Notes: generated by a model not told the origin, from the letters alone. Shown: positions 5,195 through 63,586, counted from the first letter of the stretch. The stretch: DNA of 64,000 nt from a virus (IMGVR_UViG_3300033072_001087:50816-114815); one strand, 5' to 3'. A program made the numbers and translations.

Positions 5195-5575
5195 CTACTT
5201 CGCAATCTCGTAGAGCGCAGCTAATAACGCCAATGCTGCGCGTTCTGCGATTGAGATGGCATAGTCCTGTCTGGAAACACCGTGATATTCGCCGTTCTTG
5301 CGATAGGTCAGAACGACTCGTCCGTCATCGTGGAATGTGATGTCGAACCCTTTTTCTTGGCATACTTCAACGACCACATTGAGATCGGAGTGGTAATCTG
5401 GAACCCTCACGCTTGCCATAACAATCTCAACGCCTTGCGCATCGCGAGTAATTCCATTTTCTTGAATCTGAGTTTTTAATGGGTGTTCGTACCAGTAATC
5501 GTTGTATTCCGCAACGTATACTGGCTTGAGTCCTAAGTGTACTGCGATTTCTATGTCGATGCTTCTGGCGTTCAT
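5195..5575 (-). CDS. Hypothetical protein. The start was moved to the internal ATG at 5575 (MNARSIDIEI...).
   Basis: The upstream part of the long ORF covers a GC-rich hairpin and is unlikely to be coding. Confidence 0.35.
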   Translation of the reverse strand: MNARSIDIEIAVHLGLKPVYVAEYNDYWYEHPLKTQIQENGITRDAQGVEIVMASVRVPDYHSDLNVVVEVCQEKGFDITFHDDGRVVLTYRKNGEYHGVSRQDYAISIAERAALALLAALYEIAK

Positions 5576-5614
5576 AGCGCTCCTGTGAACAATTGTTCTC
5601 ACCGTAGACGCGGC

Positions 5615-36010: not shown

Positions 36011-37078
36011 ATGCCACCAACACGCGAAATCTACAAAGAATATACCCGCTTGCTCGAAGAACTGTCACTCTCGAAAAGGAGCGCGGCGCGCATGATAGCG
36101 GACAAGTACGGACTATCGCTCGATCCAACGCGGCGTCGGCTGCATCAATATGATGTGCGGCTTAAAGACGATCTCAGTAAATGGAAAGACGCGCTTTCAG
36201 ACCTTCGTCGGCAGAACCATTTTGTTGTCGGTCACGCCAGCGATATTCACGCCCCATTTCACGACCAACAAGCCCTCAACCTGTCTTATCAGACCACACA
36301 TCATCTACAACCCAATATCGTTGTCGTCGGCTCTGACTTCGCCGATTTTCCAACGATCAGCGCCTACGCGCCCGACCCGGACTTGGGCAACGAAGATATT
36401 CTCGAAACCATCCAACAGGCTTGGTGGCGGCACATTGACGACATTCGTAAAGCCGCGCCGAACGCGGTACTCGTCTGGATACGCGGGAACCACGAAGAAC
36501 GGCTTTGGCGTTTCATCAATGAAAGCGCACCGCAAATTCGTAATACGACGCGCGACGCCTTTATCAACCTCATCCGCTATCAAGGGAATGTCCTCTATCT
36601 AGGCGACATACCGGAAATCGAGATCGGCCCACTGACGGTGCTGCATGGCGACAACACTTGCATCGGCGACATGGCGGCGCGCAAGCTGCTGACGCATCGC
36701 CGTTTTCAAGGATTCTATATGTTCGGGCATAATCACAAGATTACCGAATACACCACGCAGGGCAATAATCGGTTGTCTGGCGCAGCGGGCGGCGGGCATC
36801 TTGGGCAGCGCATCCCGCATTACCAGCGCAACTCAAAATTCAATCACTGGATTCAAGGCACTTGCTACGGAATCGTAGATTGGAAAGCCGATTACGTGGC
36901 ATTTGAAAATCTCAAGTTTCAAGTGGATAATAAAGGCACGCTGCACACAAGCATCGGCAGCACTCACTTTACGGAGAGGAAATGTACATCTTCGCGCCAA
37001 ACTACCCAATGGCACAACGTTATGCAGAACTCCATCGAATCAAGTCCTTCGTCTACGTCACAGATGAATGCCAAGTAA
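36011..37078 (+). CDS. Metallophosphoesterase (calcineurin-like phosphatase) with N-terminal HTH-like segment.
   Basis: VVGHASDIHAPFHD (DxH), VVVVGSDFADF (GD), WIRGNHEE (GNH[DE]), FMFGHNH. Confidence 0.7.
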   Translation: MPPTREIYKEYTRLLEELSLSKRSAARMIADKYGLSLDPTRRRLHQYDVRLKDDLSKWKDALSDLRRQNHFVVGHASDIHAPFHDQQALNLSYQTTHHLQPNIVVVGSDFADFPTISAYAPDPDLGNEDILETIQQAWWRHIDDIRKAAPNAVLVWIRGNHEERLWRFINESAPQIRNTTRDAFINLIRYQGNVLYLGDIPEIEIGPLTVLHGDNTCIGDMAARKLLTHRRFQGFYMFGHNHKITEYTTQGNNRLSGAAGGGHLGQRIPHYQRNSKFNHWIQGTCYGIVDWKADYVAFENLKFQVDNKGTLHTSIGSTHFTERKCTSSRQTTQWHNVMQNSIESSPSSTSQMNAK

Positions 37079-37215
37079 CCAATGGCGACAAAATCCTCGC
37101 CATTGTCAAGGACAATCGTGGTGGTATTCCGCTCCCAAAACCCAAAGCCGAACTCCTCAAACGCCTTGAAAGCGCCTACCGACACCGCGTCGAGTATGTC
37201 GAACAATCGCAGTGA
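36982..37215 (+). CDS. Hypothetical small protein.
   Basis: 77-aa ORF overlapping the 3' end of the phosphoesterase gene. Weak support. Confidence 0.2.
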   Translation: MYIFAPNYPMAQRYAELHRIKSFVYVTDECQVTNGDKILAIVKDNRGGIPLPKPKAELLKRLESAYRHRVEYVEQSQ

Positions 37216-37225
37216 ACAATTGTTC
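37214..37225. promoter_or_regulatory. Cheo-box-like palindrome GAACAATTGTTC (GAAC-N4-GTTC), a candidate LexA/SOS operator.
   Basis: Perfect 12-bp palindrome matching the Gram-positive-type LexA box core, about 90 bp upstream of the ATG at 37312. Confidence 0.45.
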
Positions 37226-37265
37226 GCATTCTTTGGGCTTTACTATCTAAAAATCTTGTGCTAAA

Positions 37266-37300
37266 ATTACTGTACATTAGTAAGTCTAATGTACAGTAAT
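37266..37300. promoter_or_regulatory. Perfect inverted repeat with 15-bp arms and a 5-nt spacer (attactgtacattag taagt ctaatgtacagtaat), an operator-like site adjacent to the RBS.
   Basis: Read directly. Ends 5 nt before the aggag RBS of the ORF starting at 37312. Confidence 0.6.
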
Positions 37301-37311
37301 TAGGAGCTGTC

Positions 37312-37815
37312 ATGATTTCAACCAAAGACCTGAACAACTATAATCTAATCGGCGTATTTTCCGTCCGCGATCTGGCGACGATGTTCAATCCGCCAACCGG
37401 CACATATGTATATTTTAAGCGGTCTGATTTGGTTTGCTGTGGATTCGACGCGATCGTTATCGAAAGAGTCCTGCGCGAGAAGATGCACACAAAAGCCGCA
37501 TATGGGCTGGTATTTACCAACGAGGATCGAAAGGATCTACTTCTCGTAGACGGAAACGATATGATTTTCGCTTATGAGCCAAGAATGGCTGTTGAGTCAA
37601 CGAGCGGCTTGACGGAAGACGAACGCGCGGTACTCGACAACCTCGTCGCGGCTTGGGACGCGCACGCAAAACTGCCGGTGCAGCACCCGACGCACATGAA
37701 TGAATTTATGCAAGCCATTCACGCCGCACAACGGATTGTCATGTCGCGTCCAGTGGCACGCGCCGAAGGCTGGATAAAAGAAACCGCAAATACTCGTATC
37801 AATCTACCGGAGTAA
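37312..37815 (+). CDS. Hypothetical protein.
   Basis: 167-aa ORF with a good RBS (taggag). Confidence 0.4.
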   Translation: MISTKDLNNYNLIGVFSVRDLATMFNPPTGTYVYFKRSDLVCCGFDAIVIERVLREKMHTKAAYGLVFTNEDRKDLLLVDGNDMIFAYEPRMAVESTSGLTEDERAVLDNLVAAWDAHAKLPVQHPTHMNEFMQAIHAAQRIVMSRPVARAEGWIKETANTRINLPE

Positions 37816-39476: not shown

Positions 39477-39621
39477 CAAGCTTAAGGGCGCAGCGCTTTT
39501 TCTATTCACGCGCTTTGCATATACGCAAAAATCTGCGGAAGACGTTATTTTTGTCGTTATTGCTATCGCACTGATCGTCATCATGGCATCTTGTGGTATC
39601 ATTATCCTCATCGCACGATGA
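39469..39621 (+). CDS. Small hydrophobic peptide (about 50 aa).
   Basis: FVVIAIALIVIMASCGIIILIA TM segment. Could be a membrane-active or lysis-related peptide. Confidence 0.25.
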   Translation: MFNKLKGAALFLFTRFAYTQKSAEDVIFVVIAIALIVIMASCGIIILIAR

Positions 39622-39636
39622 GGATAATCAATCTAG

Positions 39637-40170
39637 ATGAAAAGGTTCATGCAGCGTTACGCCGAAGGACGCACTTGGTTCGCTTTGTTTACGCGTGATA
39701 GCGACAGCCCACAGCCCTTTGCCATTGTTGATATACGCGACTCTGCGCTCTTGCGTAACTTCTTTTCGCGTGCATTTTCGCAGTATAACCACCGACTGAT
39801 TTCAGATTCGCTGATGCACTACATTGAACAGAGTGAATGGGATCGGCAAGGCTATTTTGACGCCATTATCCGCGTCGGTCGCCGCCACCCAAGTCGATCA
39901 CAAATGTTCCTACTGTCCTATGCGGCAACCCATACGGGATGGTTTCGCTTTCCCGAAGAAATGCGCGCCGACGTTTCCACTAAGAGCCTGTTTGTCTGCA
40001 CGGAACGGGGTTGGATGGCATGGAACGATGGCAACTATCGCATTACATCGGAAGGGCGTCGCGTCCTAAGAAATGCAATCCTAGATGAACGAGATCGAGA
40101 AAAATCAAGCCGGGATAAACGCCGCGCTCGGCAAAATCGCCAACGCGGCGGCGCAGGCGACAGCACTTGA
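39637..40170 (+). CDS. Hypothetical protein with basic C-terminal tail.
   Basis: 177-aa ORF. C-terminus RDKRRARQNRQRGG. Confidence 0.35.
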   Translation: MKRFMQRYAEGRTWFALFTRDSDSPQPFAIVDIRDSALLRNFFSRAFSQYNHRLISDSLMHYIEQSEWDRQGYFDAIIRVGRRHPSRSQMFLLSYAATHTGWFRFPEEMRADVSTKSLFVCTERGWMAWNDGNYRITSEGRRVLRNAILDERDREKSSRDKRRARQNRQRGGAGDST

Positions 40171-41080
40171 CACCTACAAATTAGACCTTGCCCCAAATAC
40201 ATTGGATCGTCAACGGCGCGATTTGTCGCTCTTTGCGGATTACTTGATGGGAAAAGGGATGCGCGTCGGCGATCTGTTCAACAGCGCCGAGGCGTGGCGT
40301 GGTATTACGTGGGGATTGGTCAAGGGGTTCGGGTTGTGGATGCAGCACAAGGGATACGCGTTGGGTTCGGTTGCGGTTAGATTTGCAACCGTCAAGCGCT
40401 ATGCCGCGCTTGCTGTACAATCTGGAATAATCGACGCAAATGAGGGCGCATTGATTAAATCCTTGCGCCCCTTTACGAACACACGCAATGTCGATGCAAA
40501 ACGCGCCAGAACACGTCTGGGCGCGAAAAAAGCCCATTCTACAGACTTGACGTTAGAGCAGCGAAAAACCCTCAAAGAACGCGCCTCCTCTACCCCACAA
40601 AGCGCGTGTTACGCCCTGCTCATGTGTTTACTTCTTGATCACGGTCTTAGAGTATCGGAGGTCATTCTGCTTACTGACGCGAACGTAGACACTACCCTGT
40701 GGACTCTCAGTTTCTATCGTCCAAAGGTTGATCGTCACGATATTCACCGCATGACGCAAGACACAATCCATGCTTACTTAGCCTACAAACCGTTTATAAT
40801 AGAAGGCGAGAAGCTGCTGCGTCAATCAGAACGCGGCGGCGCATTAGGCAAGCCCGGATTAACGCGTGGCGGCGTCGAACAAATCGTCAAACGACTTGGG
40901 AAAAACATCGGGGTCCCATCGCTCTCGCCCCATGATTGTCGGCATTCTTGGGCAACAGAATACGAGAAGAAACACACGCCGTTTGAACTGCGCGACGCAG
41001 GGGGCTGGAACAGCTTGGATATGCCAAATCGCTATGTCAACCGAAAACGAATCAGCAATCAAGGAGAGGACTTGGAATAA
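40085..41080 (+). CDS. Tyrosine recombinase / phage integrase.
   Basis: C-terminal catalytic region HDCRHSWATEY...GGWNSLDMPNRYV (R..H..R..Y). N-terminal SAM-like core-binding region. The true start may be downstream of 40085. Confidence 0.8.
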   Translation: MNEIEKNQAGINAALGKIANAAAQATALDTYKLDLAPNTLDRQRRDLSLFADYLMGKGMRVGDLFNSAEAWRGITWGLVKGFGLWMQHKGYALGSVAVRFATVKRYAALAVQSGIIDANEGALIKSLRPFTNTRNVDAKRARTRLGAKKAHSTDLTLEQRKTLKERASSTPQSACYALLMCLLLDHGLRVSEVILLTDANVDTTLWTLSFYRPKVDRHDIHRMTQDTIHAYLAYKPFIIEGEKLLRQSERGGALGKPGLTRGGVEQIVKRLGKNIGVPSLSPHDCRHSWATEYEKKHTPFELRDAGGWNSLDMPNRYVNRKRISNQGEDLE

Positions 41081-42285
41081 TGTTTGGCGTGAATATACTG
41101 GCGCAATTCCTCAAAGATCGAAATCGCGCCATTGACTTTGTGTACGATCTCAAGCCCAATGCGCTGTTGGTGATGGACGATCGACAGCTGGCATTAGATT
41201 TAGCGTTTTCGCCAAAACTGCCAACGACGACGGTTGTTTACCGCGCCTACGATCCACACGACGATTCGTGGCATCTAAGAAACAGCGCGAGCGAGATATG
41301 GAACTGGCACAAACGCTTCGCGCATCCGAAACTCGTCATGCAGATCTGGAACGAGCCGTCTGGATACGTGAACGTCGAAGCGTTGGTCGAAAAAGCGGTT
41401 GACATTGTGCATATGGCTTCTGCAGACAACTTAAGAGTGGTCATGCCGATGTGGGGCGTCGGACATCCCGATAACAAGTTGATCAGCAGTGGGGTTTTAG
41501 ATCCGCTGATCGAAACGCTCTACCAACACCCGGAACAGTATTACGGCGTTCATGAATACGCCAGAACATCCATTGCAGAAGCGATTGACGAAGACCATGT
41601 ACTGCGCTGTGTCGCTTTCTTGGAACGCGCAAAAAAGATCGGCTGCCCGATTGCGGCTCAGCGCATCATCGTCGGCGAATTTGGGCGTGACTACATGGGG
41701 CGCTATGAAGATGGCTATCGCGATAACATGACCAGCGAGGGCTATGCTGTCATGCACCGGAGTGCTGAAGAAGCATACCGCGCCTACGGCATCAACAAGG
41801 TTATTACGTTTTGCATGGGCAACGGCGGCGGCAATCGGTGGGAGAAGTTCAATATCGAAGGAGACGAGATCGTGCAAGACGCGCTTATCGACATCAACAC
41901 AAAATCAATCACGGAGCCCCCACCTGCGGTCGAACCGCCGGTTGAATCAAAGAAGTATTACGGCATCATTCAAACCACTGCTCTACGCGTGAATGTCAGA
42001 GAAGCCCCTTCCCTCAACGCGAAGGTTGTAACAACAGTCACGGGCGGAAATGTTGTCGAATACATGCCGGACTCGGTTGTGATGGATGAGAATGGGCGCG
42101 CATGGTTCATGCTGATTGAACCGCGCGGCTATCTTGCGTCATGGGCGGCTTGGGTTCAAAGCATTACAAGCGATCAAGGTTCTATCGATCGGATTGCCAA
42201 ACTTAACGATGACATCACGGATGCGCTGACACGCGCCGCAAGCGCTGTTGGCGAGATAAAAGACATACTGAACTCGATCAAGTAG
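41080..42285 (+). CDS. GH5-like glycoside hydrolase domain fused to a C-terminal SH3b domain (candidate lysin or depolymerase).
   Basis: QIWNEPSGY (GH5 NEP acid/base) and IIVGEFGR (GEFG nucleophile-like). C-terminal YYGIIQTTALRVNVREAPSLNAKVVTTVTGGNVVEY...DENGRAWFMLIE resembles bacterial SH3b. Confidence 0.5.
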   Translation: MFGVNILAQFLKDRNRAIDFVYDLKPNALLVMDDRQLALDLAFSPKLPTTTVVYRAYDPHDDSWHLRNSASEIWNWHKRFAHPKLVMQIWNEPSGYVNVEALVEKAVDIVHMASADNLRVVMPMWGVGHPDNKLISSGVLDPLIETLYQHPEQYYGVHEYARTSIAEAIDEDHVLRCVAFLERAKKIGCPIAAQRIIVGEFGRDYMGRYEDGYRDNMTSEGYAVMHRSAEEAYRAYGINKVITFCMGNGGGNRWEKFNIEGDEIVQDALIDINTKSITEPPPAVEPPVESKKYYGIIQTTALRVNVREAPSLNAKVVTTVTGGNVVEYMPDSVVMDENGRAWFMLIEPRGYLASWAAWVQSITSDQGSIDRIAKLNDDITDALTRAASAVGEIKDILNSIK

Positions 42286-42286
42286 C

Positions 42287-42326
42287 GATAGTCCCGGTCA
42301 TGACCGGGACTATCTAATTTTGTTGG
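42287..42326 (+). terminator. Rho-independent terminator.
   Basis: 13-bp perfect stem gatagtcccggtc/gaccgggactatc with a 2-nt loop, followed by taattttgttgg. Confidence 0.75.
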
Positions 42327-42483: not shown

Positions 42484-43257
42484 TCAAGCAAAGTTATCTG
42501 CGAACATTGGCAGCGTGTAGGCAACGGATAGCCGCTTACGTGCTGTTACCGAGTGAACTGGCGAATTATCCCCAAGAATGTACCGTCGTCCCGTGTTCCG
42601 CGCAGCGACGCCGGTAGTGCCGCTGCCGCACGTTGGGTCTAAGACGACATCGCCAGATAGCGTATAGGTTCGTATAAGATACTCGATCAAGCTAACAGGC
42701 TTTTGCGTCGGATGCAGCCCGGTTTCGTTCGCAAATTGATGAACGGTCTTCGGGTATCTCCACCCCTCGTTGACTGTACCGAGCAAATCGAACTTGCCGT
42801 AGTTGGTCGTCTTGCCTTTCGTCTTTGCCTTGTACGGCGTTCCAGCTTCCATTTGCGGGAAATATACCGGTTCTTTCCGAGAGAAAATCAGAATGTTCTC
42901 GTGTGAGCGAAGCGGACGGCGGTTCGCATCCAAGAAGCCGCTTCCGCGCGGCTTCTCCCAAATCATCTCGTAGCGAAATAAGTCGAGTGCGCTCATAACC
43001 AACATACTCGTGAATGGTTGAGATCCGGTGAGCGCAATTACGCCGTCCGACTTGATGATGCGGCGGAAACGCCGCCACATCGGTTCAAGCGGAATCAGCG
43101 TATCCCAACTGTTTTGCGTTACCGCGTAGGGTAAATCTGCGAAGATGAAATCGACAACGACTCCCGCCTCGTAAATCCAGTCGCACAGCGAGAACAGGTC
43201 CAGAAAATGAACCGCGTTGAATAGATCTGAGGCCGTCCGCGCTGGCAGCAGGTTCAC
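42484..43257 (-). CDS. DNA methyltransferase (N4/N6 class).
   Basis: FADLPY-type motif IV and VLDPTCGSGTTGVAA motif I. Confidence 0.7.
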   Translation of the reverse strand: MNLLPARTASDLFNAVHFLDLFSLCDWIYEAGVVVDFIFADLPYAVTQNSWDTLIPLEPMWRRFRRIIKSDGVIALTGSQPFTSMLVMSALDLFRYEMIWEKPRGSGFLDANRRPLRSHENILIFSRKEPVYFPQMEAGTPYKAKTKGKTTNYGKFDLLGTVNEGWRYPKTVHQFANETGLHPTQKPVSLIEYLIRTYTLSGDVVLDPTCGSGTTGVAARNTGRRYILGDNSPVHSVTARKRLSVAYTLPMFADNFA

Positions 43258-43266
43258 GATAGCGTC

Positions 43267-44397
43267 CTAACGGTTGAGGCTCATCGGCATGATCACGCAA
43301 ACGAGTCCGTCATAGCTTTCTGGGCGAATCACCACCGGATGCGCCGCGCCGTGAGTCTCCAGAATAATGCGCTCGCTGTCGATGATATTCAGCACGTCGA
43401 TCAAGTAGCGAATGTTATACGCCACTTCCAGCGCTTCCCCTTCGACTCCGGCGTCGATCATGCCCTCACTATCACCGCGTTCGGCGCTGCGTCCCAAGAT
43501 CGATAACTGTCCCGGTTCACTGGGGCTGGCAGGCGGTTGTGCGATGAATCGCGCGCTGAAGTTGTTGTCGCGCGCAAAAATTTCGGCTCGCTTGCATTGA
43601 TTGAGCAGTTCATCGGCATATACCGTTATCGATGTACTGTAGGTTTTTGGAACAATAGCGTTGAAGTCTGGGAATTTACCGCTGATCAATTGCGACGTAA
43701 TGATCGTGCTTTCGTAATAAAACGCCACACCCTCTCGTTCATCGAGCATGGATAGTCCAAGCGGCCGCTCTTCATCGGTAATCACACGCGCTACTTCCGC
43801 TAACGTTCTTGCGGGAATGATCATCGGTTCACTTTCAGCGGACTCGTCAATTTGACTTGTCCGAACTGACAGACGATACCCATCCGCTGAAGTCATTGTC
43901 AGCGCGTTATTGCCGAACTGAGTATAGATGCCACCCAAAACAGGGCGAGAGTCTTCCTTCGCCGCAGCAAAGACTGTTTGCGTAATCATCTGCTTGAATA
44001 CGCCGGATGGTAGTTGTACGGACGCCCCTTTTGTTTCAGGAATCGGAGGGAATTCTGACGCCGCAATGCCCTTGATGTTCGATTTGGTCGTACCACAGCG
44101 GACATTAACCGTTTGCGTTTGCGCGTCAAGTATTAGATCGACTCGTTCAGATGACAGGTTATTGACTAATTCAGCGAATGTCTTAGCGGGAAGCGTAATC
44201 GCGCCGGGAACATCGATTTTCGCACCGACATAGGTTGTGATGCTCATTTCGAGGTTCGTTGCGACGAGTTTGAGGCGGGCATCTTCGGTCATCAACAGCA
44301 CGTTCGCCAAGACCGGCAGAGTCGGACGCGACTCGACAGCTTTGGCGACAATACTTAATCCTCTGGCGAGCTGATCTTGCAAGATTGAAACACGCAT
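43267..44397 (-). CDS. dnaN: DNA polymerase III beta subunit (sliding clamp).
   Basis: 376 aa. N-terminus MRVSILQDQLARGLSIVAKAV...PVLANVLL and the three-domain clamp pattern. Confidence 0.8.
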   Translation of the reverse strand: MRVSILQDQLARGLSIVAKAVESRPTLPVLANVLLMTEDARLKLVATNLEMSITTYVGAKIDVPGAITLPAKTFAELVNNLSSERVDLILDAQTQTVNVRCGTTKSNIKGIAASEFPPIPETKGASVQLPSGVFKQMITQTVFAAAKEDSRPVLGGIYTQFGNNALTMTSADGYRLSVRTSQIDESAESEPMIIPARTLAEVARVITDEERPLGLSMLDEREGVAFYYESTIITSQLISGKFPDFNAIVPKTYSTSITVYADELLNQCKRAEIFARDNNFSARFIAQPPASPSEPGQLSILGRSAERGDSEGMIDAGVEGEALEVAYNIRYLIDVLNIIDSERIILETHGAAHPVVIRPESYDGLVCVIMPMSLNR

Positions 44398-45242
44398 TAC
44401 GTTGACTCCTCATTGATTGTTAGGTTCGCGAACATCGGTAGTGTTCGGATTGGATCGTAATTCATCCACAGCGATTCCATCTTCTGCTTTGGCGTCCCTG
44501 TGCCGCTAACTGTATTTACGGCAAAGTCCCTGCGCGTATACCCGTTTAAAGCGGAATACAACGCATTATCGTAGCCGCTCAAAATGACATATGCCTTCTT
44601 GATCGCGTTTAAAGCGGCGACCAACCGTTCGTGATGCGCATCATCAACATCATTTTCATACCGCGCTTCGGTCCGCGTCGATAAAACATATGGCGGATCA
44701 AGATAAATCAACGTCCGTTCGCGGTCAAATTCGCCGATCAGTTCCAGTGCGTCGCGGTTGGTCACAATGACCGTCGATAGCCGCGCGTGTAATTCCGGCA
44801 TTTCATCGACCGATGACAGGAAATCGCTGACCGACTTGCTCGTATTACGGCGAACGGTTGTGTTGATTGAGAACCCCCCAATGCCATTATGCCGTGTCCG
44901 ATTGACGTACCAGAAACGGAATGCGCGCTCAACATCATCCAATTCGCCGCGCAGCGATACGCGGTACTCGTTCGATGTGCTTTCGTCATAGAGCGCTAAC
45001 TGACACAGGCGATAAAATTCCGCGAACAACGCCTCATCGCGCAGCACTTTGAATAAGGCGTAGACATTCCGATTCACGTCGTTGTAGAGTTCAATCGGAA
45101 CGCGCGGCTTGTTGAGCAGAACAACGCCGCTTCCGCCATACGCATCCACGAACGTGTCGTATAAGGACTCGTCAGGGAAATAAGACAACAATTGCGCGAT
45201 CATGCCGCCTTTTCCGCCAAAATACTTGACCGGTGCGTTCAT
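44397..45242 (-). CDS. dam: DNA adenine methyltransferase (Dam-like).
   Basis: KYFGGKGGM (motif I region), DAYGGSG, YLDPPYVLSTR (DPPY). Start placed at MNAPVKYFGGKG. Confidence 0.75.
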   Translation of the reverse strand: MNAPVKYFGGKGGMIAQLLSYFPDESLYDTFVDAYGGSGVVLLNKPRVPIELYNDVNRNVYALFKVLRDEALFAEFYRLCQLALYDESTSNEYRVSLRGELDDVERAFRFWYVNRTRHNGIGGFSINTTVRRNTSKSVSDFLSSVDEMPELHARLSTVIVTNRDALELIGEFDRERTLIYLDPPYVLSTRTEARYENDVDDAHHERLVAALNAIKKAYVILSGYDNALYSALNGYTRRDFAVNTVSGTGTPKQKMESLWMNYDPIRTLPMFANLTINEEST

Positions 45243-45562
45243 TTTGTATCTAGTAATTTTGGCATGTACAGCGCGTGTTTGCCCATCACCCATCCATCCG
45301 GCATCGCGAAGATTTTTATCTTAATCGCCCAATCCGCAAACGCTTTTGCCTCAAGCAGCATCTTGATCTTGCCATCATCAAGGTTGGTTGCAGTTTGTGC
45401 TGCAAACAAGAGAAGCAAGCAGTACGATGCGCGCCAATAGACCATTTCGCGCCACGCTTTAAACCAGCGGTAAAGCAAGTACAATGGCACAAGAAATATC
45501 GCGAAGAACCACCCAACATCCGCGTTCATGAAGGCTGTCCAATCGATAATGCTGGCGTTCAC
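45239..45562 (-). CDS. Small membrane protein.
   Basis: Hydrophobic segment DVGWFFAIFLVPLYLLY. Confidence 0.3.
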   Translation of the reverse strand: MNASIIDWTAFMNADVGWFFAIFLVPLYLLYRWFKAWREMVYWRASYCLLLLFAAQTATNLDDGKIKMLLEAKAFADWAIKIKIFAMPDGWVMGKHALYMPKLLDTK

Positions 45563-45960: not shown

Positions 45961-47029
45961 CGTTACCCTCTGTGCGTTCCTTGAAAGCATTGCGGTAGAT
46001 AATAGGTTCAATCGACTTTCCCGACTTAAGCGCAAACAAATACCCATGTACATCTTTCGGGTAATTTGCTTGTACCCACAGCGCGAAGTCCCGTTGAGTT
46101 CCGCTCGGCGCAATTGATATTGCGTCCACGCACTCGTTTGTGATGCGTGTTACTGTTTCATCTATCTCTCTTTTCCAAGCACGAATTTGATCAAGGAACT
46201 CGTCTGGTACGCCATCAATTAGCTGCTCGTATTTGTCTTGCGCAACCGCATCAAGGATTCGGTTAAAGCTGCATCCCGTCAAAATGCGATGAGCCATTAC
46301 ATACGCATCCCCCTTGACTTTAAGACGCATATTGTCCGAATAGCGCAGCACCCAGCCCTCCTCATTCGCACTTAAAGATTGCGCCGCATTCAAAATGTCA
46401 TCTATACTATCGAAGGTGTAGGTTCGCGGACGCATAAACCCATACGCATTTGCTATAACATCTAATTCAGCCGCATAAAGCTCGTGACCTAATTGAATAT
46501 TGCGCCCGCCAAGCAGCACAACACCCTCGTAATCGCCGTAATTTACGACGATGCGGTTTTCTGGATAGATGATTTCAAATAACAGCGTAACCCTGCTGTC
46601 AAATGCGAAATTGGGATGATGTTGTTGAAACCATGCGCTCGCCCATTGTGCTTGAGCGCCGGTGAACGATCCGCGCGTTGCCATTTTCCATTGATCGTTG
46701 TGGAAATACAAAATACCAAGCGAACCATCCATCTTTTCCGTTATCTCGATCAAACGAGCGCCCGGCATAGGAAAGATTTGTCCGTAATTCCAGAACTTTG
46801 AGAACGGACGGGCTATGCACTCGCCGTTCTGAGTGTTAAAAATCAGCCCTCGTGAATTCGCTTCGAACCAGTTCCATCCTGACGGCGGCTTAAATTGTGC
46901 TGCTTGGGTGTAGTTGAATAACACTAACCCGTCGTGGTATGTAGCTGATACCTCTCCATACTGGCTCCAATCTTGTTCGCCGCGCTGGATTAACGACTGT
47001 ATATCGCCCAAGGACCGGATACTATTCAT
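45947..47029 (-). CDS. ATP-dependent RNA/DNA ligase-family nucleotidyltransferase.
   Basis: ITEKMDGSLG is the KxDG lysine-adenylylation motif I. 360 aa. Confidence 0.5.
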   Translation of the reverse strand: MNSIRSLGDIQSLIQRGEQDWSQYGEVSATYHDGLVLFNYTQAAQFKPPSGWNWFEANSRGLIFNTQNGECIARPFSKFWNYGQIFPMPGARLIEITEKMDGSLGILYFHNDQWKMATRGSFTGAQAQWASAWFQQHHPNFAFDSRVTLLFEIIYPENRIVVNYGDYEGVVLLGGRNIQLGHELYAAELDVIANAYGFMRPRTYTFDSIDDILNAAQSLSANEEGWVLRYSDNMRLKVKGDAYVMAHRILTGCSFNRILDAVAQDKYEQLIDGVPDEFLDQIRAWKREIDETVTRITNECVDAISIAPSGTQRDFALWVQANYPKDVHGYLFALKSGKSIEPIIYRNAFKERTEGNDEAS

Positions 47030-47820
47030 GATGCTCCCCCAAATAAGCTCAATTGCACAACGCCGTCTTTAAGCGGCTTATCCGTAGGAAATTCGGCGAT
47101 GCGCCGGTTTGCCATTTCGACATATTTTCCAGAACGATCGCAGCCTAAGAAACAACGCTTGTGTTTAAGCGCGGCTTCAGCAACCGTTCCGGATCCCATA
47201 TACGGATCAAGGATAACTTGCGCATTCGTCGTGCGAATGCAGCGGCTTGCCAATTCCAGCGGAAATGGCGCGGGATGTTCGGTACCAGAGGCTTGTGGAA
47301 TATCCCACACATCCGTCAACCCGGACGATCCTTCGACAAACGTAAAATCAGCCATCGCGATGATGTAAATGACCTCATAGCTAGGCAAGAAATAACCACG
47401 ATTGTGATTGACTCCACCAGATCGCCGCCAAATAATAATCTGACGCAGCGGCGCATCACCGATGATCTTTTCAGCGTGACGTTGGTATAACCCATTCTGC
47501 ACGCGCCACTTGTGGTTGTAGAATATGACCCCTGTTTTCGGGTTAATCACACGCAGCAGTTCGCGCATCACCTGCCGCTGCCAGTCAATGTACTCATCTT
47601 CCGGCAAATCGTCTGCGTAGCCGTCGTAGCCATTTGTGACTAATTCGCCATGCCATCCCGAAAGCGGCGGATGCTTGAATGAATTGCCGCTGCTGTTGCG
47701 GATATTGTATGGCGGCGAAGTCACGACCGAGTCAACAAAACCATCGGGAATTCGCTTAAGGTAATCTAAATCTTTCTCAACAGAAATTGTATTAAGTTGC
47801 GGTGGGAGTACCATCAGCAT
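47026..47820 (-). CDS. DNA methyltransferase (N4/N6 class, ParB-less).
   Basis: VVTSPPYNIRN motif IV and DPYMGSGTVAEAA motif I. Confidence 0.8.
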   Translation of the reverse strand: MLMVLPPQLNTISVEKDLDYLKRIPDGFVDSVVTSPPYNIRNSSGNSFKHPPLSGWHGELVTNGYDGYADDLPEDEYIDWQRQVMRELLRVINPKTGVIFYNHKWRVQNGLYQRHAEKIIGDAPLRQIIIWRRSGGVNHNRGYFLPSYEVIYIIAMADFTFVEGSSGLTDVWDIPQASGTEHPAPFPLELASRCIRTTNAQVILDPYMGSGTVAEAALKHKRCFLGCDRSGKYVEMANRRIAEFPTDKPLKDGVVQLSLFGGAS

Positions 47821-52487: not shown

Positions 52488-53536
52488 TGCCACCACTTCC
52501 AATCGACGCGCGTGATGTTCAGCGGCACAAATTCGCGCTGCCAACCGAGTTCGTCGTACATCACGCGGTCAAAAAGCGCGAACAATTGTTCAGGCTTGTA
52601 CAGCCGCGCGTGCTTGTCCGCCAACGTACATGCCCTGAAGTATTTGACCATCGGTTCGGGCATATCCTGACACGCCCAAAGCATACACTTCGCCGCCATG
52701 TAAATATCGCTGGCAGGTACGGTATCGGTACTCCCAAGCAGCGTTTCGGTCGGATAAAAGTTCTCCCACCGGTCGATCATGTACGAGAACTTCGCGCCCG
52801 CCTCGACCGCGCATGTCCAGTCGATCAGGTAGCCGCGATGCTGTCCGCCGCCACCGATGCCACCGGGTTTGAGCAGGATGTTATCCGGCACTACCGCCCC
52901 GTGCAAGTAGCCAAAGGCGTGCGGGATGGTCAGCGCAGCCAGAACCCGCCGCCAGATCCACGAAATCGCTTTCACAGGAACATGACGATCATAGATGTCA
53001 GCAAGCGTTGTCAGCGAAATCAGTTCATCGCCCTTCACATCATCGCTGTAGGCGAGAATGTGATAGTAGCCGTCGTCGTCCATGTCGCTTTCGACGAGGC
53101 GCGGAATGTACTTGAACGCTTCGCCTTCGTACAACGGCAGCGCGTTGATCCGGTTTAGGATGGCTTCTTCGCGGTCGAACAAGTCTTTGTCGCCGGTGAG
53201 AAGCCGTTTTGTGACCGTCCCATCCGCATTCAACGTGACGGACGCGATTTCGCCGACGCCGAGCATGTGTGAATCATCTTCGACCCACAGCTCATATTTC
53301 GCGTTCAAGTCGGCGATGAAGTCCTCCGCCAGCCCGTACACTTCCTTGTCGCCCATGTGTGCATCGGGGTGATAGGACTTCACAAGCCGCCGCCGAACGT
53401 CGTCAATTTGCGCTTCGACGTTCCCAAAAACCATCGCCGGTGTCGATTGGCGCATCTGTGCGTGCAGTGAACGCAGTTGATCGCGTACGGGCAATTGCTG
53501 AAAAGTTTGCAGGTTCATGTGCGACTCCATTCGCAT
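52484..53536 (-). CDS. J-domain (DnaJ-like) fused to a protein-kinase-like fold.
   Basis: RRRLVKSYHPDAHMGD carries the HPD tripeptide of J-domains. YLHGAVVPDNILL resembles the kinase catalytic loop (HRDLKPENILL, with the Asp replaced), and YLIDWT is DFG-like. Confidence 0.4.
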   Translation of the reverse strand: MRMESHMNLQTFQQLPVRDQLRSLHAQMRQSTPAMVFGNVEAQIDDVRRRLVKSYHPDAHMGDKEVYGLAEDFIADLNAKYELWVEDDSHMLGVGEIASVTLNADGTVTKRLLTGDKDLFDREEAILNRINALPLYEGEAFKYIPRLVESDMDDDGYYHILAYSDDVKGDELISLTTLADIYDRHVPVKAISWIWRRVLAALTIPHAFGYLHGAVVPDNILLKPGGIGGGGQHRGYLIDWTCAVEAGAKFSYMIDRWENFYPTETLLGSTDTVPASDIYMAAKCMLWACQDMPEPMVKYFRACTLADKHARLYKPEQLFALFDRVMYDELGWQREFVPLNITRVDWKWWQ

Positions 53537-55778: not shown

Positions 55779-57404
55779 TCAAGCCCCAAGTGTGCCACTT
55801 AAGAGTTCCAGCACTTGTGCTTTTTCCGCCACCCATTCTAGAATACTCTCTGGTAATTCAGAGAGAATTTCATCGATAGAGCGCAAGCGTAGGTGCGCTG
55901 CCATCAATAATAAATCCTGTGGGGTGATTGTGTCATCCCCTACAAAATCGGGGTAATATTGTGTAACATACTCCAATGGCTCTAGCGCATCCTGATCGAT
56001 CGCCTGTTCAACGACGGAAAAGAGCGTCGGATCATGAAAATCGCCGCGATCAAGCAAGCGTAGGTTGTGACTGCGAAACTCGCGTTTCAAGTACCAGTGA
56101 TGCGTGAGGTATCCATAAGCAACCGACTGCTCCAGCATGTGTGAGTCGGGAACGGGCGCAACAATGGTGACGGGCTGTTTTATGGACGGCGTTTCGCGAA
56201 TAGAATCGATCGGCAATGACAGCGACAGCGCGATCTTCTGCTGTGCGTCGATTCGTTCCAAGTGATTAGAAGAGGAAAGCAGTTCAATCAGCCGCAGCGC
56301 CGCGTTTTTGCGTTCTTGAAACGATTGTGGATTGCCGCGCAGTTCATGGGCGATCATGTAATCCACAACTGGAATCGCCTGCGCGATCGCGCTTGCCCAT
56401 GTCCCCGCCTTCACTAGATCGTCCGGATCCGCGCCCTGCGGAAGTTCTGCTACCCACAAGTCATAAGCTGTCTTCGCCAACTGCGCGATCCCACCGACCG
56501 TCGCGCTCTCCCCCGCCTTGTCACCATCCAGCGCGAGAATGGTTTTGCTCTTGCCGATGAGTTTTGCCTGTGCGTCGGTCAGTTGTGTACCCATCTGCGC
56601 GACGACATCCCGATACCCCGCCAAATGACACTGAATGACATCGAAATAGCCTTCTACCAGCACCATTGAACGTGTTGAGCGAATGACGGATTTGCCCTGC
56701 ACGTAGCCGTACAGGATGGAGCCACGATCAAAGATTTCGGTGCGTGGCGTATTTAAGAATTTCGGCTGCACATCATCGCTCAATGAGCGCCCGGAAAAGC
56801 CGACGATCGCGCCACTTGCATCGAATAACGGAATAATCAACCGTCCGCGAAACAATTCCGTAATTCCGTGTTCGCCTTTATGCAGCAACCCGATTGCCAA
56901 CAATTCGCTTTCCTTGAAGCCCCGCTTTTCGAGTGTTTTTGCGACGCCCCAACGCGGTGAATAGCCCAAGCGAAATTCGCTCATGAGCGCTTCGCCAAGC
57001 CCACGCGCTTCAAGGTGATCGCGCGCTGGATTAGATGTTTCGACAAGCGACTGACTGTACAATTCAGCCGCCGCCGCCAACGCGTCGTAAAGCCGCTGCT
57101 TGTGCCGCGATCCCTGCCGTTGAATTTCGACTCCCGCTTCTTTCGCAAGATTCTCAATCGCGGTTGCCAGATCCCAACCGTGTTTGAGCCGCGCGAAATC
57201 AATGACATCGCCGCCCGTTGCGCACGCCCCAAAACAGCGCCATTTCCCCGTATCCGCGTTGAGAACAAAAGAAGGCGTCGAATCGTCGTGCAGCGGACAG
57301 CGGCATTTGTAGCGATTGGTTCCGGTTTGCTTGACGTCTGGCGCGAACTGCCGTACATACGACAGCAGATCGATTTTGTTCTTAATATCTTCGATTGTGG
57401 ACAA
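55779..57404 (-). CDS. dnaG: DNA primase.
   Basis: Zinc-binding CHC2 region YKCRCPLHDDSTPSF...WRCFGAC, TOPRIM LVEGYFDVI...DGDKAG. Confidence 0.85.
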   Translation of the reverse strand: MSTIEDIKNKIDLLSYVRQFAPDVKQTGTNRYKCRCPLHDDSTPSFVLNADTGKWRCFGACATGGDVIDFARLKHGWDLATAIENLAKEAGVEIQRQGSRHKQRLYDALAAAAELYSQSLVETSNPARDHLEARGLGEALMSEFRLGYSPRWGVAKTLEKRGFKESELLAIGLLHKGEHGITELFRGRLIIPLFDASGAIVGFSGRSLSDDVQPKFLNTPRTEIFDRGSILYGYVQGKSVIRSTRSMVLVEGYFDVIQCHLAGYRDVVAQMGTQLTDAQAKLIGKSKTILALDGDKAGESATVGGIAQLAKTAYDLWVAELPQGADPDDLVKAGTWASAIAQAIPVVDYMIAHELRGNPQSFQERKNAALRLIELLSSSNHLERIDAQQKIALSLSLPIDSIRETPSIKQPVTIVAPVPDSHMLEQSVAYGYLTHHWYLKREFRSHNLRLLDRGDFHDPTLFSVVEQAIDQDALEPLEYVTQYYPDFVGDDTITPQDLLLMAAHLRLRSIDEILSELPESILEWVAEKAQVLELLSGTLGA

Positions 57405-57612
57405 GCCGTATCCCTCGTGTGACGCGCGGCGTATAATGAATACGCCCCTGCTTCGCCAGTTTCAAAACGTGCCAACGCGCCGTACCTACATTCATATCGA
57501 ATTTCTCGGCAATATCGTACAGCGATGGCGAACAATCTTGGTCATAGATGAAATCGCGAATAAAGATCTCCATCTCTTGCCGTAATTGCCGTCCTTCTAA
57601 CCCCTTACGCAT
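57382..57612 (-). CDS. LexA-like winged-helix DNA-binding protein (DBD only, no protease domain).
   Basis: QEMEIFIRDFIYDQDCSPSLYDIAEKFDMNVGTARWHVLKLAKQGRI follows the LexA N-terminal domain pattern. 76 aa. Confidence 0.45.
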   Translation of the reverse strand: MRKGLEGRQLRQEMEIFIRDFIYDQDCSPSLYDIAEKFDMNVGTARWHVLKLAKQGRIHYTPRVTRGIRLVHNRRY

Positions 57613-62671: not shown

Positions 62672-63586
62672 ATGAGCCTAGCAGTACGAACGGCGGATGG
62701 TCTTGACGACCAGACCGCTATTACGAGTCGGTCGGAACGGTTAAAGGCGCTTGAGGCGCGAATCGAAACCAACAAGCGTGCGTTCATTCAGGTCGGCATG
62801 GATCTAGCCGAGATCCATGCCGATCGTTTGTATAAAGAGTCGGGTTATGCCAACTGGAACCAATACTGCCGCGATCGGTGGGGCTTCAGCGGACGCAAGG
62901 GTTATTTCCAGATCGGTGCGGCATTGATTGCGATGGAAATTGAAACCGATACCCCCGCCACCAGCGAATCACAGGTGCGCCCTTTGACGCTTGACGGCTT
63001 GAGCGATGACGCGCGCAGCATCATCTGGAATCGCGCCGCCCAAGACGAACGCACGACCGGAGACGCGCCAACCGCTAAAGTCGTGACTGAACACCGCGAT
63101 CGCTTTATTGTCGAAGCCTGCCCCTACGAATACATCAAAGAGTCTGTGAACAATTGTTCACTTCAACCAAAAGACGCCGCCGCCTTGATCGTTGCTTTGG
63201 ATTCCGCCCCGAATCGCGTTGTGCGCGATGCGTTGGCCAGTGCCAAAATCCAAGACAAGTCTTTGGCGTTGGAATTGGTTCGACTCTACAACGATAATTC
63301 ATCGACGTTCGGCGAAGTCATGGCTTCCCGTCACATTCAAGTCGAAGATACCGCGATTCCGCTTGAGAAAGCGCGTGTCGGCGATCTGCGCGTACTCTTG
63401 GATGCAAAGGCAAAAGAGCATCGCGCAGCCGCGCAAGCCGAACGCGATGCTGACAAGCGGGTGACGCCGATCTCGTTGGTGATTTACCGTAACGATCCGC
63501 GCGCCACGTACCGCGAACTGCAGCGCGCGTTGACGACCGACGATCTTCGCGGACTAAAAACCATCCTAAACGCGGCGGATGTTTGA
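62672..63586 (+). CDS. Hypothetical protein.
   Basis: 304-aa ORF. Confidence 0.35.
   Translation: MSLAVRTADGLDDQTAITSRSERLKALEARIETNKRAFIQVGMDLAEIHADRLYKESGYANWNQYCRDRWGFSGRKGYFQIGAALIAMEIETDTPATSESQVRPLTLDGLSDDARSIIWNRAAQDERTTGDAPTAKVVTEHRDRFIVEACPYEYIKESVNNCSLQPKDAAALIVALDSAPNRVVRDALASAKIQDKSLALELVRLYNDNSSTFGEVMASRHIQVEDTAIPLEKARVGDLRVLLDAKAKEHRAAAQAERDADKRVTPISLVIYRNDPRATYRELQRALTTDDLRGLKTILNAADV

What the first reader, a model, noticed from the sequence alone, without database searches (positions are those of the whole stretch)
37214..37300. Two-operator control region: Cheo-type SOS box plus a long perfect palindrome in front of the integrase-proximal operon
GAACAATTGTTC (the GAAC-N4-GTTC LexA core of Gram-positive-type SOS boxes) lies about 90 bp upstream of the ORF at 37312. 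A perfect 15+5+15 inverted repeat, with TGTACA as the inner half-site, abuts the RBS. The phage also encodes a LexA-DBD-only protein (57382-57612). This suggests SOS-coupled induction through a LexA mimic or truncated LexA.
Basis: seen in the sequence. Interest (0 to 1): 0.7.

Follow-up and report, generated by a model that had tools for sequence, protein, structure and literature searches.

The report
Phage promoter-operator beside LexA-type box
This stretch is the promoter of a phage operon that ends in an integrase and a lysin, carrying a duplicated operator-like element, and next to it lies one of four identical LexA-type (SOS) boxes scattered over the genome; the parts are real, but they do not form one conserved SOS switch.

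Summary
GAACAATTGTTC sits at 37214-37225. The inverted repeat is 16+5+16 (37265-37301), ends 1 nt before the AGGAG RBS, and is the best in the window.

New facts change the reading:
1. The 12-mer occurs four times, exactly, in the window (two copies inside genes). It also occurs exactly in two phages whose proteins are only about 57-61% identical, at non-syntenic places. It is identical to the core of the M. tuberculosis dnaE2 SOS box, a proven LexA site.
2. The palindrome overlaps a sigma70-type promoter. Three relatives keep that promoter. Two of them carry TAnTGTACAnTA directly after the -10, and the third has a TTTACA variant overlapping its -10. The long palindrome itself is not conserved: it is single-copy in L009, split in L039 and has different outer arms in L007.
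3. The 76-aa protein is a genuine LexA-DBD-only protein.
4. An array of five Cheo-like boxes (three perfect GAAC-N4-GTTC, two with one mismatch) lies about 2.8-3.1 kb outside the window, in a 1-kb divergent control region.

Best reading: a promoter with a TSS-centred operator, duplicated here, plus a separate family of dispersed LexA-type sites. This resembles the GIL01 LexA/gp6 system but is untested, and the host is unknown.

The parts
37214..37225 (.). Box B: GAACAATTGTTC, a perfect Cheo/actinobacterial-type LexA operator core. It overlaps the stop codon of the 77-aa gene and lies 13 nt upstream of the -35 hexamer.
   Evidence: It is identical to the core of the Mtb dnaE2 SOS box.
37239..37267 (+). 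Sigma70-type promoter: TTTACT - 17 nt - TAAAAT, with an extended -10 TG (TGTGCTAAAAT). Predicted TSS is about 37274.
   Evidence: Found by the promoter scan. Homologous promoters in relatives are TTGACG-17-TATAAT (L039), TTGACA-17-TAAAAT (L009) and TTGACA-17-TACATT (L007). The 10-mer TGTGCTAAAA also occurs at two promoter-like units of the external control region.
37265..37301 (.). Perfect 16+5+16 inverted repeat. It overlaps the last 3 nt of the -10 and ends 1 nt before the RBS.
   Evidence: As RNA it folds at -23.4 kcal/mol (z = -4.5) only if transcribed from upstream. A transcript starting at 37274 keeps only a 7-bp 5' hairpin.
37268..37279 (.). Unit O1: TACTGTACATTA, matching the quasi-palindrome TAnTGTACAnTA. 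It abuts the -10 and is centred on the predicted TSS.
   Evidence: The same unit sits directly after the -10 in L039 (identical) and in L009 (TAATGTACAGTA). The pattern occurs nowhere else in about 0.5 Mb of held sequence.
37287..37298 (.). Unit O2: TAATGTACAGTA, an inverted second copy 19 bp from O1.
37303..37815 (+). RBS AGGAG (37303-37307) and the first gene of the operon (ATG 37312, 167 aa). The gene is an orphan apart from a short C-terminal phage domain.
36982..37215 (+). A 77-aa gene whose stop codon overlaps box B. It is a real gene, conserved after the metallophosphoesterase gene in relatives.
   Evidence: BLASTP against the L009 and L007 homologues gives 1e-9 and 5e-8.
39637..42285 (+). 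Conserved distal module of the operon: a 177-aa protein, an Xer-like tyrosine recombinase (40085-41080) and a GH5-like/SH3 lysin (41080-42285). A bidirectional terminator follows at 42287-42314.
5587..5598 (.). Box A: the same 12-mer, 2 nt upstream of the RBS of the first gene of the leftward operon (ATG at 5574, minus strand). It lies about 100 nt downstream of the extended -10 TGGTAAAAT.
52580..52591 (.). Box C: the same 12-mer inside the 350-aa gene (minus strand), read as E-Q-L-F. A Logan assembly-graph branch falls exactly at its left edge.
63148..63159 (.). Box D: the same 12-mer within the full 16-bp palindrome GTGAACAATTGTTCAC, inside the 304-aa gene. It is conserved in a second sample (L004, 98.9% identical).
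57382..57612 (-). A LexA-DBD-only winged-helix protein of 76 aa, lying between a DNA methyltransferase gene and the DnaG primase gene.
   Evidence: A homologue, P0003 (65% identical), sits in the same gene order in L006.

Best explanation
The region holds two separate things.

(1) A host-sigma70/sigmaA-type promoter (TTTACT-17-TGcTAAAAT, predicted TSS about 37274). It drives a cargo operon that ends in a conserved 177-aa protein, an Xer-like integrase and a GH5 lysin. A 12-bp quasi-palindrome, TAnTGTACAnTA, lies directly after the -10 and is centred on the start site. I infer it is the operator of a dimeric repressor that has not been identified. In this phage the unit is present twice in inverted orientation, 19 bp apart, embedded in a perfect 16+5+16 palindrome. 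Two dimers could therefore cover the region from the -10 to the RBS. Transcripts reading through from upstream would also fold into a -23 kcal/mol hairpin next to the RBS.

(2) GAACAATTGTTC is one copy of a family of invariant, dispersed LexA-class sites: four in this window, and more in related phages. I infer these are bound by a LexA-fold protein, either the host LexA, the phage's own uncleavable 76-aa LexA-DBD protein, or both. Its closeness to this promoter is specific to this lineage and not part of a conserved two-operator unit. The main SOS-type control array lies outside the window.

What is shown: the sequences, their statistics, the conservation of the promoter, unit and box in relatives, and the protein family. 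What is inferred: all binding, repression and SOS coupling.
For: Promoter:
- The scan finds it.
- Three relatives with 57-61% identical neighbouring proteins have near-consensus promoters at the homologous place.

Unit:
- TAnTGTACAnTA starts at the base after the -10 in the window, L039 and L009.
- It is found nowhere else in about 0.5 Mb of held sequence, against about 0.5 expected.
- L007 has a TTTACATTA variant overlapping its -10, inside its own perfect 17+7+17 palindrome.
- The predicted TSS lies inside the left arm (window, L039) or in the loop (L007). The full hairpin therefore cannot form in the local transcript, which favours a DNA-level role.
- The palindrome is perfect, with no G-T pairs.

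Box:
- Four exact copies against about 0.004 expected, with no degenerate copies.
- Exact copies also occur in L007/L008 and twice in L009.
- None occur in 330 kb of more distant integrase relatives.
- The 12-mer is identical to a validated LexA operator.
- Across the 77 kb known for this phage there are 9 GAAC-N4-GTTC sites against about 1.2 expected. Three of them, plus two one-mismatch boxes, form the array at the external control region.
- The LexA-DBD-only protein is real, and its recognition helix is conserved in P0003.
- GIL01 gp6 is a precedent.
Against: - No repressor for the TGTACA unit was identified. The operon's first genes differ between relatives, and none of the operon proteins has a detectable DNA-binding domain.
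- TSS positions are predictions only.
- L039 can fold into an imperfect long-range stem (CTGTAC...GTACAG) closing a variable insert. This is what an RNA element would look like, although z = -1.6.
- Outer-arm covariation between the window and L007 fits RNA or a recombinase site as well as an operator.
- For the box, invariance of the AATT spacer and in-frame intragenic copies (E-Q-L-F in three unrelated genes) are atypical for LexA regulons.
- The flanks often lack the C/G of CGAAC...GTTCG.
- Box positions relative to promoters are inconsistent (-54.5, about +105, intragenic).
- The host, and so its LexA class, is unknown. All searches for close relatives with a named host failed.
Confidence: 0.45

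Rival explanations
1. Box and palindrome together form one SOS-coupled two-operator switch for the integrase-proximal operon, worked by host LexA and/or the 76-aa LexA mimic. For example, LexA or its mimic sits on the box while the mimic binds the TACTGT-containing arms.
For: In this phage the box and promoter are only 13 nt apart. The 12-mer is a validated LexA site. The LexA-DBD-only protein exists. GIL01 shows LexA and a truncated LexA homologue acting together at one promoter. Each palindrome arm begins TACTGTA, which from my own knowledge equals the E. coli-type LexA half-site.
Against: The pairing is not conserved. L007, L009 and L039 keep the promoter and unit but have the box kilobases away, degenerate, or inside genes. 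The box centre at about -54.5 is neither a repressing position nor the gp6-like -43.5. CTGT and ACAG are 19 nt apart, not 8. The array of Cheo-like boxes lies at another control region.
Confidence: 0.15
2. The palindrome works as RNA. It is either a 5'-terminal stem-loop that stabilises the operon mRNA, or a long hairpin in read-through late transcripts (an RNase III site or translational gate) placed just before the RBS.
For: The 16-bp stem folds at -23.4 kcal/mol, z = -4.5. L007 folds at -25.8, z = -6.3. The outer arms differ between the window and L007 but stay complementary. The predicted primary transcript of both the window and L039 starts with ACAUUAG, which pairs with a downstream (C)UAAUGU. 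The stems end 1-3 nt from the RBS. A second palindrome at 39601-39628 encloses the RBS of the 177-aa gene.
Against: L009 has one unit and no hairpin at all. In L007 the local TSS would fall in the loop. Seven to ten base pairs of each perfect palindrome lie upstream of the predicted TSS. There are no G-U pairs in 33 pairs. The conserved piece keeps its position relative to the -10, not relative to the start codon. There is no U-tract, so it is not a terminator. There is no Rfam match.
Confidence: 0.22
3. The palindrome is the core site (lox/dif-like: 15-nt arms around a 7-bp asymmetric spacer GTAAGTC) of the Xer-like tyrosine recombinase encoded 2.8 kb downstream. It would serve integration or dimer resolution, and possibly autoregulation as well.
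For: The architecture is 15-7-15 in the window and 17-7-17 in L007, with shared inner arms TACATTA/TAATGTA and different spacers. The recombinase is small and Xer-like, with no detected arm-binding domain. Distant relatives L015 and L027 have perfect AT-rich palindromes abutting the integrase RBS. A ParM-like ATPase just outside the window hints at a plasmid-prophage lifestyle.
Against: L009 keeps a 59% identical integrase but has only one half-unit, and L039 has a 25-nt spacing. Most of the 23 integrase loci have no such palindrome upstream. There is no second copy in 77 kb. There is no match to the arms in 596 Gb of GTDB genomes. There is no assembly break at the site.
Confidence: 0.08
4. 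The GAACAATTGTTC copies are not LexA-family sites at all. They would be dispersed sites for another dimeric protein, acting as centromere-like sites, roadblocks or recombination linkers, like the invariant 17-bp dyad repeats of Cluster O mycobacteriophages.
For: All 12 positions are invariant. Copies sit inside coding sequence. Positions are non-syntenic in relatives. A de Bruijn-graph branch falls exactly at the edge of box C. Boxes B and L009-a sit at borders between conserved and variable gene blocks. The Cluster O precedent, TGTTCGG-N3-CCGAACA, has about a third of its copies in genes and no known function (PMC4351075).
Against: The match to a proven LexA operator is exact. Canonical Cheo boxes co-occur in the same genome. 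A LexA-fold DNA-binding protein is encoded by the phage. No ParA/ParB pair was seen in the sequence held.
Confidence: 0.25

Closest known systems
Bacillus tectivirus GIL01 control by host LexA, gp7 and the truncated LexA homologue gp6 (PMC6182141)
   Same: The phage has no recognisable CI-type repressor in the sequence seen. It carries LexA-class boxes at control regions. It encodes a small LexA-DBD-only protein in its early/replication block. A palindromic site lies upstream of a promoter for later genes.
   Different: This is an unrelated and much larger phage: at least 77 kb, with a long tape-measure protein and its own DnaB/DnaG. No gp7 homologue was looked for. The 76-aa protein gives no tblastn hit in GenBank phages at E<=0.01. 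The gp6 site is GaCACAC-GTGTGaC at -43.5, whereas here the box is a true LexA-type sequence centred about -54.5. The box is repeated four times, including inside genes.
Mycobacterium tuberculosis dnaE2 SOS box TCGAACAATTGTTCGA (PMC8607333, PMC2724278)
   Same: The 12-bp core GAACAATTGTTC is identical and perfectly palindromic. It is bound by a Cheo/actinobacterial-class LexA with a KD of about 2 nM.
   Different: The flanks here are mostly not TC...GA (GT..GC, GT..TC, GC..AG, GT..AC). The sites are in a phage, and half of them are intragenic. The host is unknown.
Invariant 17-bp dyad repeats of Cluster O mycobacteriophages (PMC4351075)
   Same: Invariant palindromic repeats are scattered through a siphovirus genome. 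Many lie inside coding regions and most are not at promoters. They are conserved across related phages.
   Different: Cluster O has more than 30 copies per genome, against 4 in 64 kb here. The half-sites are everted (TGTTCGG-N3-CCGAACA). No LexA-like protein is implicated there.
Stoperators of Cluster A mycobacteriophages (PMC9283540)
   Same: Many copies of one repressor site are spread through transcription units, acting beyond promoters.
   Different: Stoperators are asymmetric 13-mers, oriented with transcription and mostly intergenic. They are bound by a monomeric two-domain repressor.
Classical promoter-overlapping phage operators (lambda/434/P22 type; from my own knowledge)
   Same: A dyad element abuts or overlaps the -10 and +1 of a sigma70 promoter, sometimes in two adjacent copies.
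   Different: The cognate repressor is unknown. The two copies here are fused into one perfect 37-bp palindrome that also reaches the RBS.

Membership tests
Cheo/Gram-positive-type LexA operator (SOS box) | Inverted repeat GAAC-N4-GTTC with an A/T-rich spacer | tested here: met
   GAACAATTGTTC at 37214-37225. It is identical to the core of a validated SOS box.
Cheo/Gram-positive-type LexA operator (SOS box) | Flanking C/G (CGAAC...GTTCG) | tested here: inconclusive
   Box B has tGAAC...GTTCg. Box C has cGAAC...GTTCa. Boxes A and D have neither. Four of seven sites across the phage family have it on one side, which is about the chance level.
Cheo/Gram-positive-type LexA operator (SOS box) | Overlaps the -35/-10/+1 of a damage-inducible promoter | tested here: not met
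   Box B is centred about -54.5 from the predicted TSS. Box A is about +105. Boxes C and D are intragenic. The one-mismatch boxes of the external array do overlap TGTGCTAAAA -10 elements.
Cheo/Gram-positive-type LexA operator (SOS box) | Bound by the host's LexA, in a host with Cheo-class LexA | not testable with these tools
   The host was not identified. There is indirect support from the Cheo-like box array in the same genome.
GIL01 gp6-type truncated LexA regulator | Protein consists of the LexA N-terminal winged-helix domain only | tested here: met
   It is 76 aa. PDB matches cover LexA residues 7-71. The family profile hits LexA at E of about 1e-19, 29 of 29 members hit PF01726, and there is no S24 domain.
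GIL01 gp6-type truncated LexA regulator | Detectable sequence relationship to gp6 or tectivirus homologues | tested here: not met
   tblastn of the 76-aa protein against 50,697 GenBank phage records found no match at E<=0.01.
GIL01 gp6-type truncated LexA regulator | Binds a palindrome overlapping the -35 (about -43.5) and activates a late promoter | not testable with these tools
   Binding and activation were not measured. The geometry differs: the box ends 13 nt upstream of the -35.
Promoter-overlapping repressor operator | Dyad element at a fixed position overlapping the -10/+1 of a real promoter | tested here: met
   TAnTGTACAnTA starts at the base after the -10 in the window, L039 and L009. 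The promoters are near consensus in the relatives.
Promoter-overlapping repressor operator | Cognate DNA-binding repressor identified | tested here: not met
   No DNA-binding domain was found in the operon proteins. The structure model of the first gene product was unusable, with pLDDT 43.
lox/dif-type tyrosine-recombinase core site | Two inverted 11-17-bp arms around a 6-8-bp asymmetric spacer, with the recombinase encoded in cis | tested here: met
   The architecture is 15-7-15 if the G/C pair is counted in the spacer. The Xer-like recombinase gene is at 40085-41080.
lox/dif-type tyrosine-recombinase core site | A partner site or recombination junction, with the site conserved alongside the recombinase | tested here: not met
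   There is no second copy and no match in GTDB genomes. L009 keeps the recombinase but has no dyad.
Intrinsic terminator | G+C-rich stem followed by a U-tract | tested here: not met
   The stem is A/U-rich and is followed by AAUUAGGAGCUG. The terminator scan did not list it.
Protelomerase tel site | Palindrome that is symmetric through its centre, plus a large protelomerase | tested here: not met
   The centre is 5 nt and asymmetric (TAAGT). The recombinase is 277-331 aa and Xer-like.

The most novel reading that the evidence does not exclude
The invariant GAACAATTGTTC copies form a genome-wide system of dispersed binding sites, shared by a whole family of uncultured phages, for a LexA-fold protein. 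The most interesting candidate is the phage's own cleavage-proof LexA-DBD protein, which could take over sites vacated by host LexA during SOS. The sites would act away from promoters as roadblocks, silencers or recombination linkers. They are even written into coding sequence as E-Q-L-F in unrelated genes, and one coincides with an assembly-graph junction. This would be a stoperator-like or Cluster-O-like system built on the SOS operator.
Probability: 0.2. Interest if true: 0.75.

Novelty: new variant of a known kind. Interest (0 to 1): 0.5.

Why it matters
If binding is confirmed, this would extend the GIL01 strategy far beyond small Bacillus tectiviruses. In that strategy the phage borrows the host SOS repressor and adds its own truncated LexA. 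Here the same logic would apply to a large, otherwise unrelated group of uncultured tailed phages.

It would also give a concrete, testable case of invariant operator copies kept inside genes. The same puzzle is unsolved for the Cluster O mycobacteriophage repeats.

The promoter with its TGTACA unit is a clean, conserved handle for finding the unknown regulator of an integrase/lysin operon.

If binding fails, the region is an ordinary phage promoter with a hairpin, next to a repeat of unknown function.

Tried and rejected
Searches for close relatives that found nothing:
- Megablast and tblastn against GenBank phages.
- IMG/VR with the 167-aa protein, the phosphoesterase, the LexA-like alignment and the phosphoesterase alignment.
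- The exact palindrome in IMG/VR and in GTDB genomes.
- JGI metagenomes with the 167-aa protein, which found nothing, and with the integrase alignment, which gave only one 22%-identical hit.
- GTDB genomes with the terminase.
- The 167-aa protein is an orphan among 5.8 billion proteins.

Useful relatives came only through the phosphoesterase and through distant integrase homologues.

Other dead ends:
- The structure prediction of the 167-aa protein was unusable, with pLDDT 43.
- There was no Rfam family and no tRNA.
- No papers mention the SRA runs.

Readings considered and dropped:
- Intrinsic terminator: there is no U-tract.
- Protelomerase tel site: the centre is asymmetric and the recombinase is small and Xer-like.
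- E. coli-type LexA box: CTGT and ACAG are 19 nt apart, not 8.
- CRP-like TGTGA-N6-TCACA: the spacing is 8.
- parS: the half-sites are everted relative to TGTTNCACGTGNAACA (from my own knowledge).
- Restriction or methylation target: a 12-16-bp site is too long.
- Circular wrap-around artefact of the window: the ends do not repeat.
- A general rule that integrase relatives carry an upstream palindrome: only about 6 of 23 loci do, and such palindromes are common in phage DNA.

Full report
**What is in the sequence**

The window is 52% G+C and reads as one large tailed-phage genome:
- leftward genes up to about 5.6 kb;
- a rightward block from 5.8 to 42.3 kb, containing methylase, terminase, structural, lysis-like and accessory genes, then integrase and lysin;
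- a leftward replication block from 42.5 to 62.2 kb.

The finding sits in the only sizeable non-coding gap of the distal rightward block.

GAACAATTGTTC is at 37214-37225. A sigma70-like promoter, TTTACT-17-TAAAAT with an extended -10 TG, spans 37239-37267. A perfect 16+5+16 inverted repeat spans 37265-37301 and is the best in the window. AGGAG is at 37303-37307 and the ATG is at 37312. Both elements are far beyond chance.

**The box is a family, not a single site**

The identical 12-mer occurs four times, at 5587, 37214, 52580 and 63148. About 0.004 copies are expected, and there are no near-variants beyond chance. The half-site consensus extends to GTGAACAATTGTTCAC.

The four copies sit in different contexts:
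- Copy A lies 2 nt before the RBS of the first leftward gene, about 100 nt downstream of an extended -10.
- Copy B overlaps the stop codon of a conserved 77-aa gene.
- Copies C and D are inside genes.

The phosphoesterase gene next to the finding has relatives at 57-61% identity on long contigs. Those phages share the gene order 115-aa, phosphoesterase, 77-aa, variable small ORFs, 142-aa, 177-aa, integrase, GH5 lysin. They also carry the exact 12-mer at other places. In L007/L008 it lies inside a 67-aa ORF. In L009 one copy lies after the 113-aa gene and one inside the integrase gene.

Three intragenic copies in unrelated proteins are read in the same frame, as E-Q-L-F. L039 has only near-boxes. 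In 330 kb around more distant integrase homologues (36-46% identity) there is no copy at all.

The motif is therefore under selection at the DNA level in one phage lineage, independent of gene context.

**Is it a LexA site?**

A text search found the 12-mer in two papers. TCGAACAATTGTTCGA is the M. tuberculosis dnaE2 SOS box. It is described as perfectly palindromic and is bound by Mtb LexA with a KD of about 2 nM (PMC8607333, PMC2724278). The sequence itself is therefore a proven operator for a GAAC-N4-GTTC-class LexA.

The window is also only part of the genome. Logan contigs place 11.4 kb before its start. About 2.8-3.1 kb before the window there is a 1-kb non-coding region between divergent genes. 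It holds five Cheo-like boxes:
- two identical copies of AGAACATGCGTTCG, 81 bp apart;
- three 59-bp tandem units, each with TTTAGAAC-N4-GT(T/G)CTA. The first unit carries a perfect box. The boxes of the other two each have one mismatch and overlap a TGTGCTAAAA extended -10.

Over the 77 kb known, GAAC-N4-GTTC occurs 9 times against about 1.2 expected. This favours a host with a Cheo-class LexA. It also places the likeliest SOS switch outside the window, not at 37.2 kb. The host itself could not be named.

**The LexA-DBD-only protein**

Alone, the 76-aa protein is sub-threshold in Pfam. However, its top nine PDB matches are LexA DNA-binding domains over residues 7-71, and NCBIfam's lexA model is its only hit. 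A search of 1.8 billion representatives finds 47 relatives, mostly 67-160 aa. A profile of 29 of them hits LexA structures at about 1e-19, and all 29 hit PF01726. Only two carry the S24 peptidase domain.

A 65% identical homologue, P0003, keeps the recognition helix (NVGTAR[W/F]HVLKLAK). It lies in the same methylase, LexA-like, primase gene order.

GIL01 gp6 is the precedent. It is a truncated LexA homologue that binds a palindrome at -43.5 and activates the late promoter (PMC6182141).

**The palindrome is a duplicated promoter-proximal unit**

The three relatives have near-consensus promoters at the homologous position:
- L039: TTGACG-17-TATAAT
- L009: TTGACA-17-TAAAAT
- L007: TTGACA-17-TACATT

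The sequences directly after the -10 are:
- window: TACTGTACATTAG
- L039: TACTGTACATTAG (18 of 19 identical with the window, counting the -10)
- L009: TAATGTACAGTAG

The pattern TAnTGTACAnTA occurs in about 0.5 Mb of held sequence only at these places and in the window's right arm. About 0.5 copies are expected.

The long palindrome itself is not conserved:
- L009 has a single unit and no dyad.
- L039 has its inverted TAATGTA 25 nt away.
- L007 has its own perfect 17+7+17 palindrome. It shares the inner TACATTA-N7-TAATGTA but has different outer arms, and its -10 lies inside the left arm.

With the usual 7-nt distance from the -10, the start site is about 37274. That is the centre of unit O1 and lies inside the left arm. 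The local transcript therefore keeps only a 7-bp 5' hairpin. The full -23.4 kcal/mol stem needs read-through from upstream.

The unit's position is fixed relative to the -10. The pairing is perfect, with no wobbles. L009 has no hairpin at all. Together these favour a DNA-level operator centred on the start site, duplicated in this phage.

An RNA role remains a serious rival. The outer arms covary between the window and L007, the 5'-terminal ACAUUAG pairing is kept in the window and L039, and the stems end at the RBS. A recombinase core site is a weaker rival, because L009 keeps a 59% identical integrase without a dyad and no partner site was found.

**Do the two elements work together?**

In this phage they are 13 nt apart, but the relatives do not keep them together. 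The box centre (about -54.5) matches neither a repressing position nor the gp6 geometry. I therefore treat them as two systems that happen to be adjacent here. One is a conserved promoter-operator for the accessory/integrase/lysin operon. The other is one member of a dispersed family of LexA-class sites.

No binding has been shown. The mechanism is an inference from position, conservation, and the identity of the 12-mer with a proven operator.

**Comparison with known systems**

The logic is closest to GIL01 (host LexA plus a truncated phage LexA), in an unrelated and much larger phage. The dispersed invariant palindromes, a third to a half of them inside genes, most resemble the unexplained 17-bp repeats of Cluster O mycobacteriophages (PMC4351075). 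In concept they also resemble Cluster A stoperators (PMC9283540).

I rate this a new variant of a known kind, of moderate interest. The higher-interest reading is a promoter-independent system of LexA-fold binding sites, to which I give about 0.2.

Noticed in passing
Outside the window: L002 14498-14857, equivalent to window -2755 to -3114: A 1-kb non-coding region lies between divergent genes and holds five Cheo-like boxes. Two are identical copies of CAGAACATGCGTTCGTTA, 81 bp apart. Three are 59-bp tandem units with TTTAGAAC-N4-GT(T/G)CTA, of which the first box is perfect and the other two each have one mismatch; the -10-like TGTGCTAAAA of those two overlaps the box. This is probably the phage's real SOS-controlled switch, or possibly an origin.
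   Followed up: partly
window 52579-52610: In the Logan assembly of SRR32380192, one contig ends at 52609 and the next starts exactly at 52580, the first base of box C. The 30-nt overlap equals k-1. This means the assembly graph branches precisely at the left edge of the box. It may be a mosaic or recombination junction, or just a SNP at 52579.
   Followed up: partly
window 53515-54663 (minus strand): An adenylosuccinate-synthetase homologue hits the phage PurZ-type family phrog_1211 at 1.4e-60. It scores far below the cut-offs of both the NCBIfam PurZ and PurA models. The phage might make 2-aminoadenine (Z) DNA, but no DatZ or MazZ was identified.
   Followed up: partly
window 39597-39637: This is a second unit built like the first. 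An extended -10 TATCAT (39597-39602) overlaps a perfect 13+2+13 palindrome, ATTATCCTCATCG-ca-CGATGAGGATAAT (39601-39628). The palindrome encloses the GAGGA RBS of the conserved 177-aa gene just upstream of the integrase. As RNA it folds at -16.2 kcal/mol, z = -4.2.
   Followed up: partly
window 5807-7105, 42484-43257, 44397-45293, 47026-47820, 57625-58242: The phage has at least five DNA methyltransferase genes, one of them fused to a ParB-like N-terminal domain. This is an unusually heavy anti-restriction load.
   Followed up: no
L004 4869-5918, about window 66400-67450 (outside the window); also L010 3197-4282: An actin-like (ParM/ALP-type) ATPase gene is present. Together with an Xer-like recombinase and no obvious attP or tRNA, this hints at a plasmid-prophage lifestyle.
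   Followed up: no
window 36011-37215: The metallophosphoesterase ORF runs 32 codons past the point where its relatives stop. It overlaps the conserved 77-aa gene by 97 nt in another frame, whereas in the relatives the two genes overlap by 4 nt. Automatic gene callers missed the 77-aa gene.
   Followed up: partly
window 60273-60298 and 60324-60349: An exact 26-bp direct repeat, AGCACCGCTAAATCTGGCTGTGCTTC, occurs 51 bp apart inside the 332-aa gene of the replication block.
   Followed up: no
L015 7850-7884 and L027 7849-7875 (IMG/VR relatives, 64% and 63% G+C): Perfect A/T-rich palindromes (13+9+13 and 11+5+11) containing -10-like hexamers lie just upstream of the RBS of integrase homologues (41-46% identical). 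Most other integrase loci lack them.
   Followed up: partly
window 41080-42285 and L007 14477 onward: The last gene of the operon is a GH5 (cellulase-family)-like domain with an SH3b domain, conserved right after the integrase in relatives. It is an odd partner for an integrase and an unusual candidate lysin or depolymerase.
   Followed up: no
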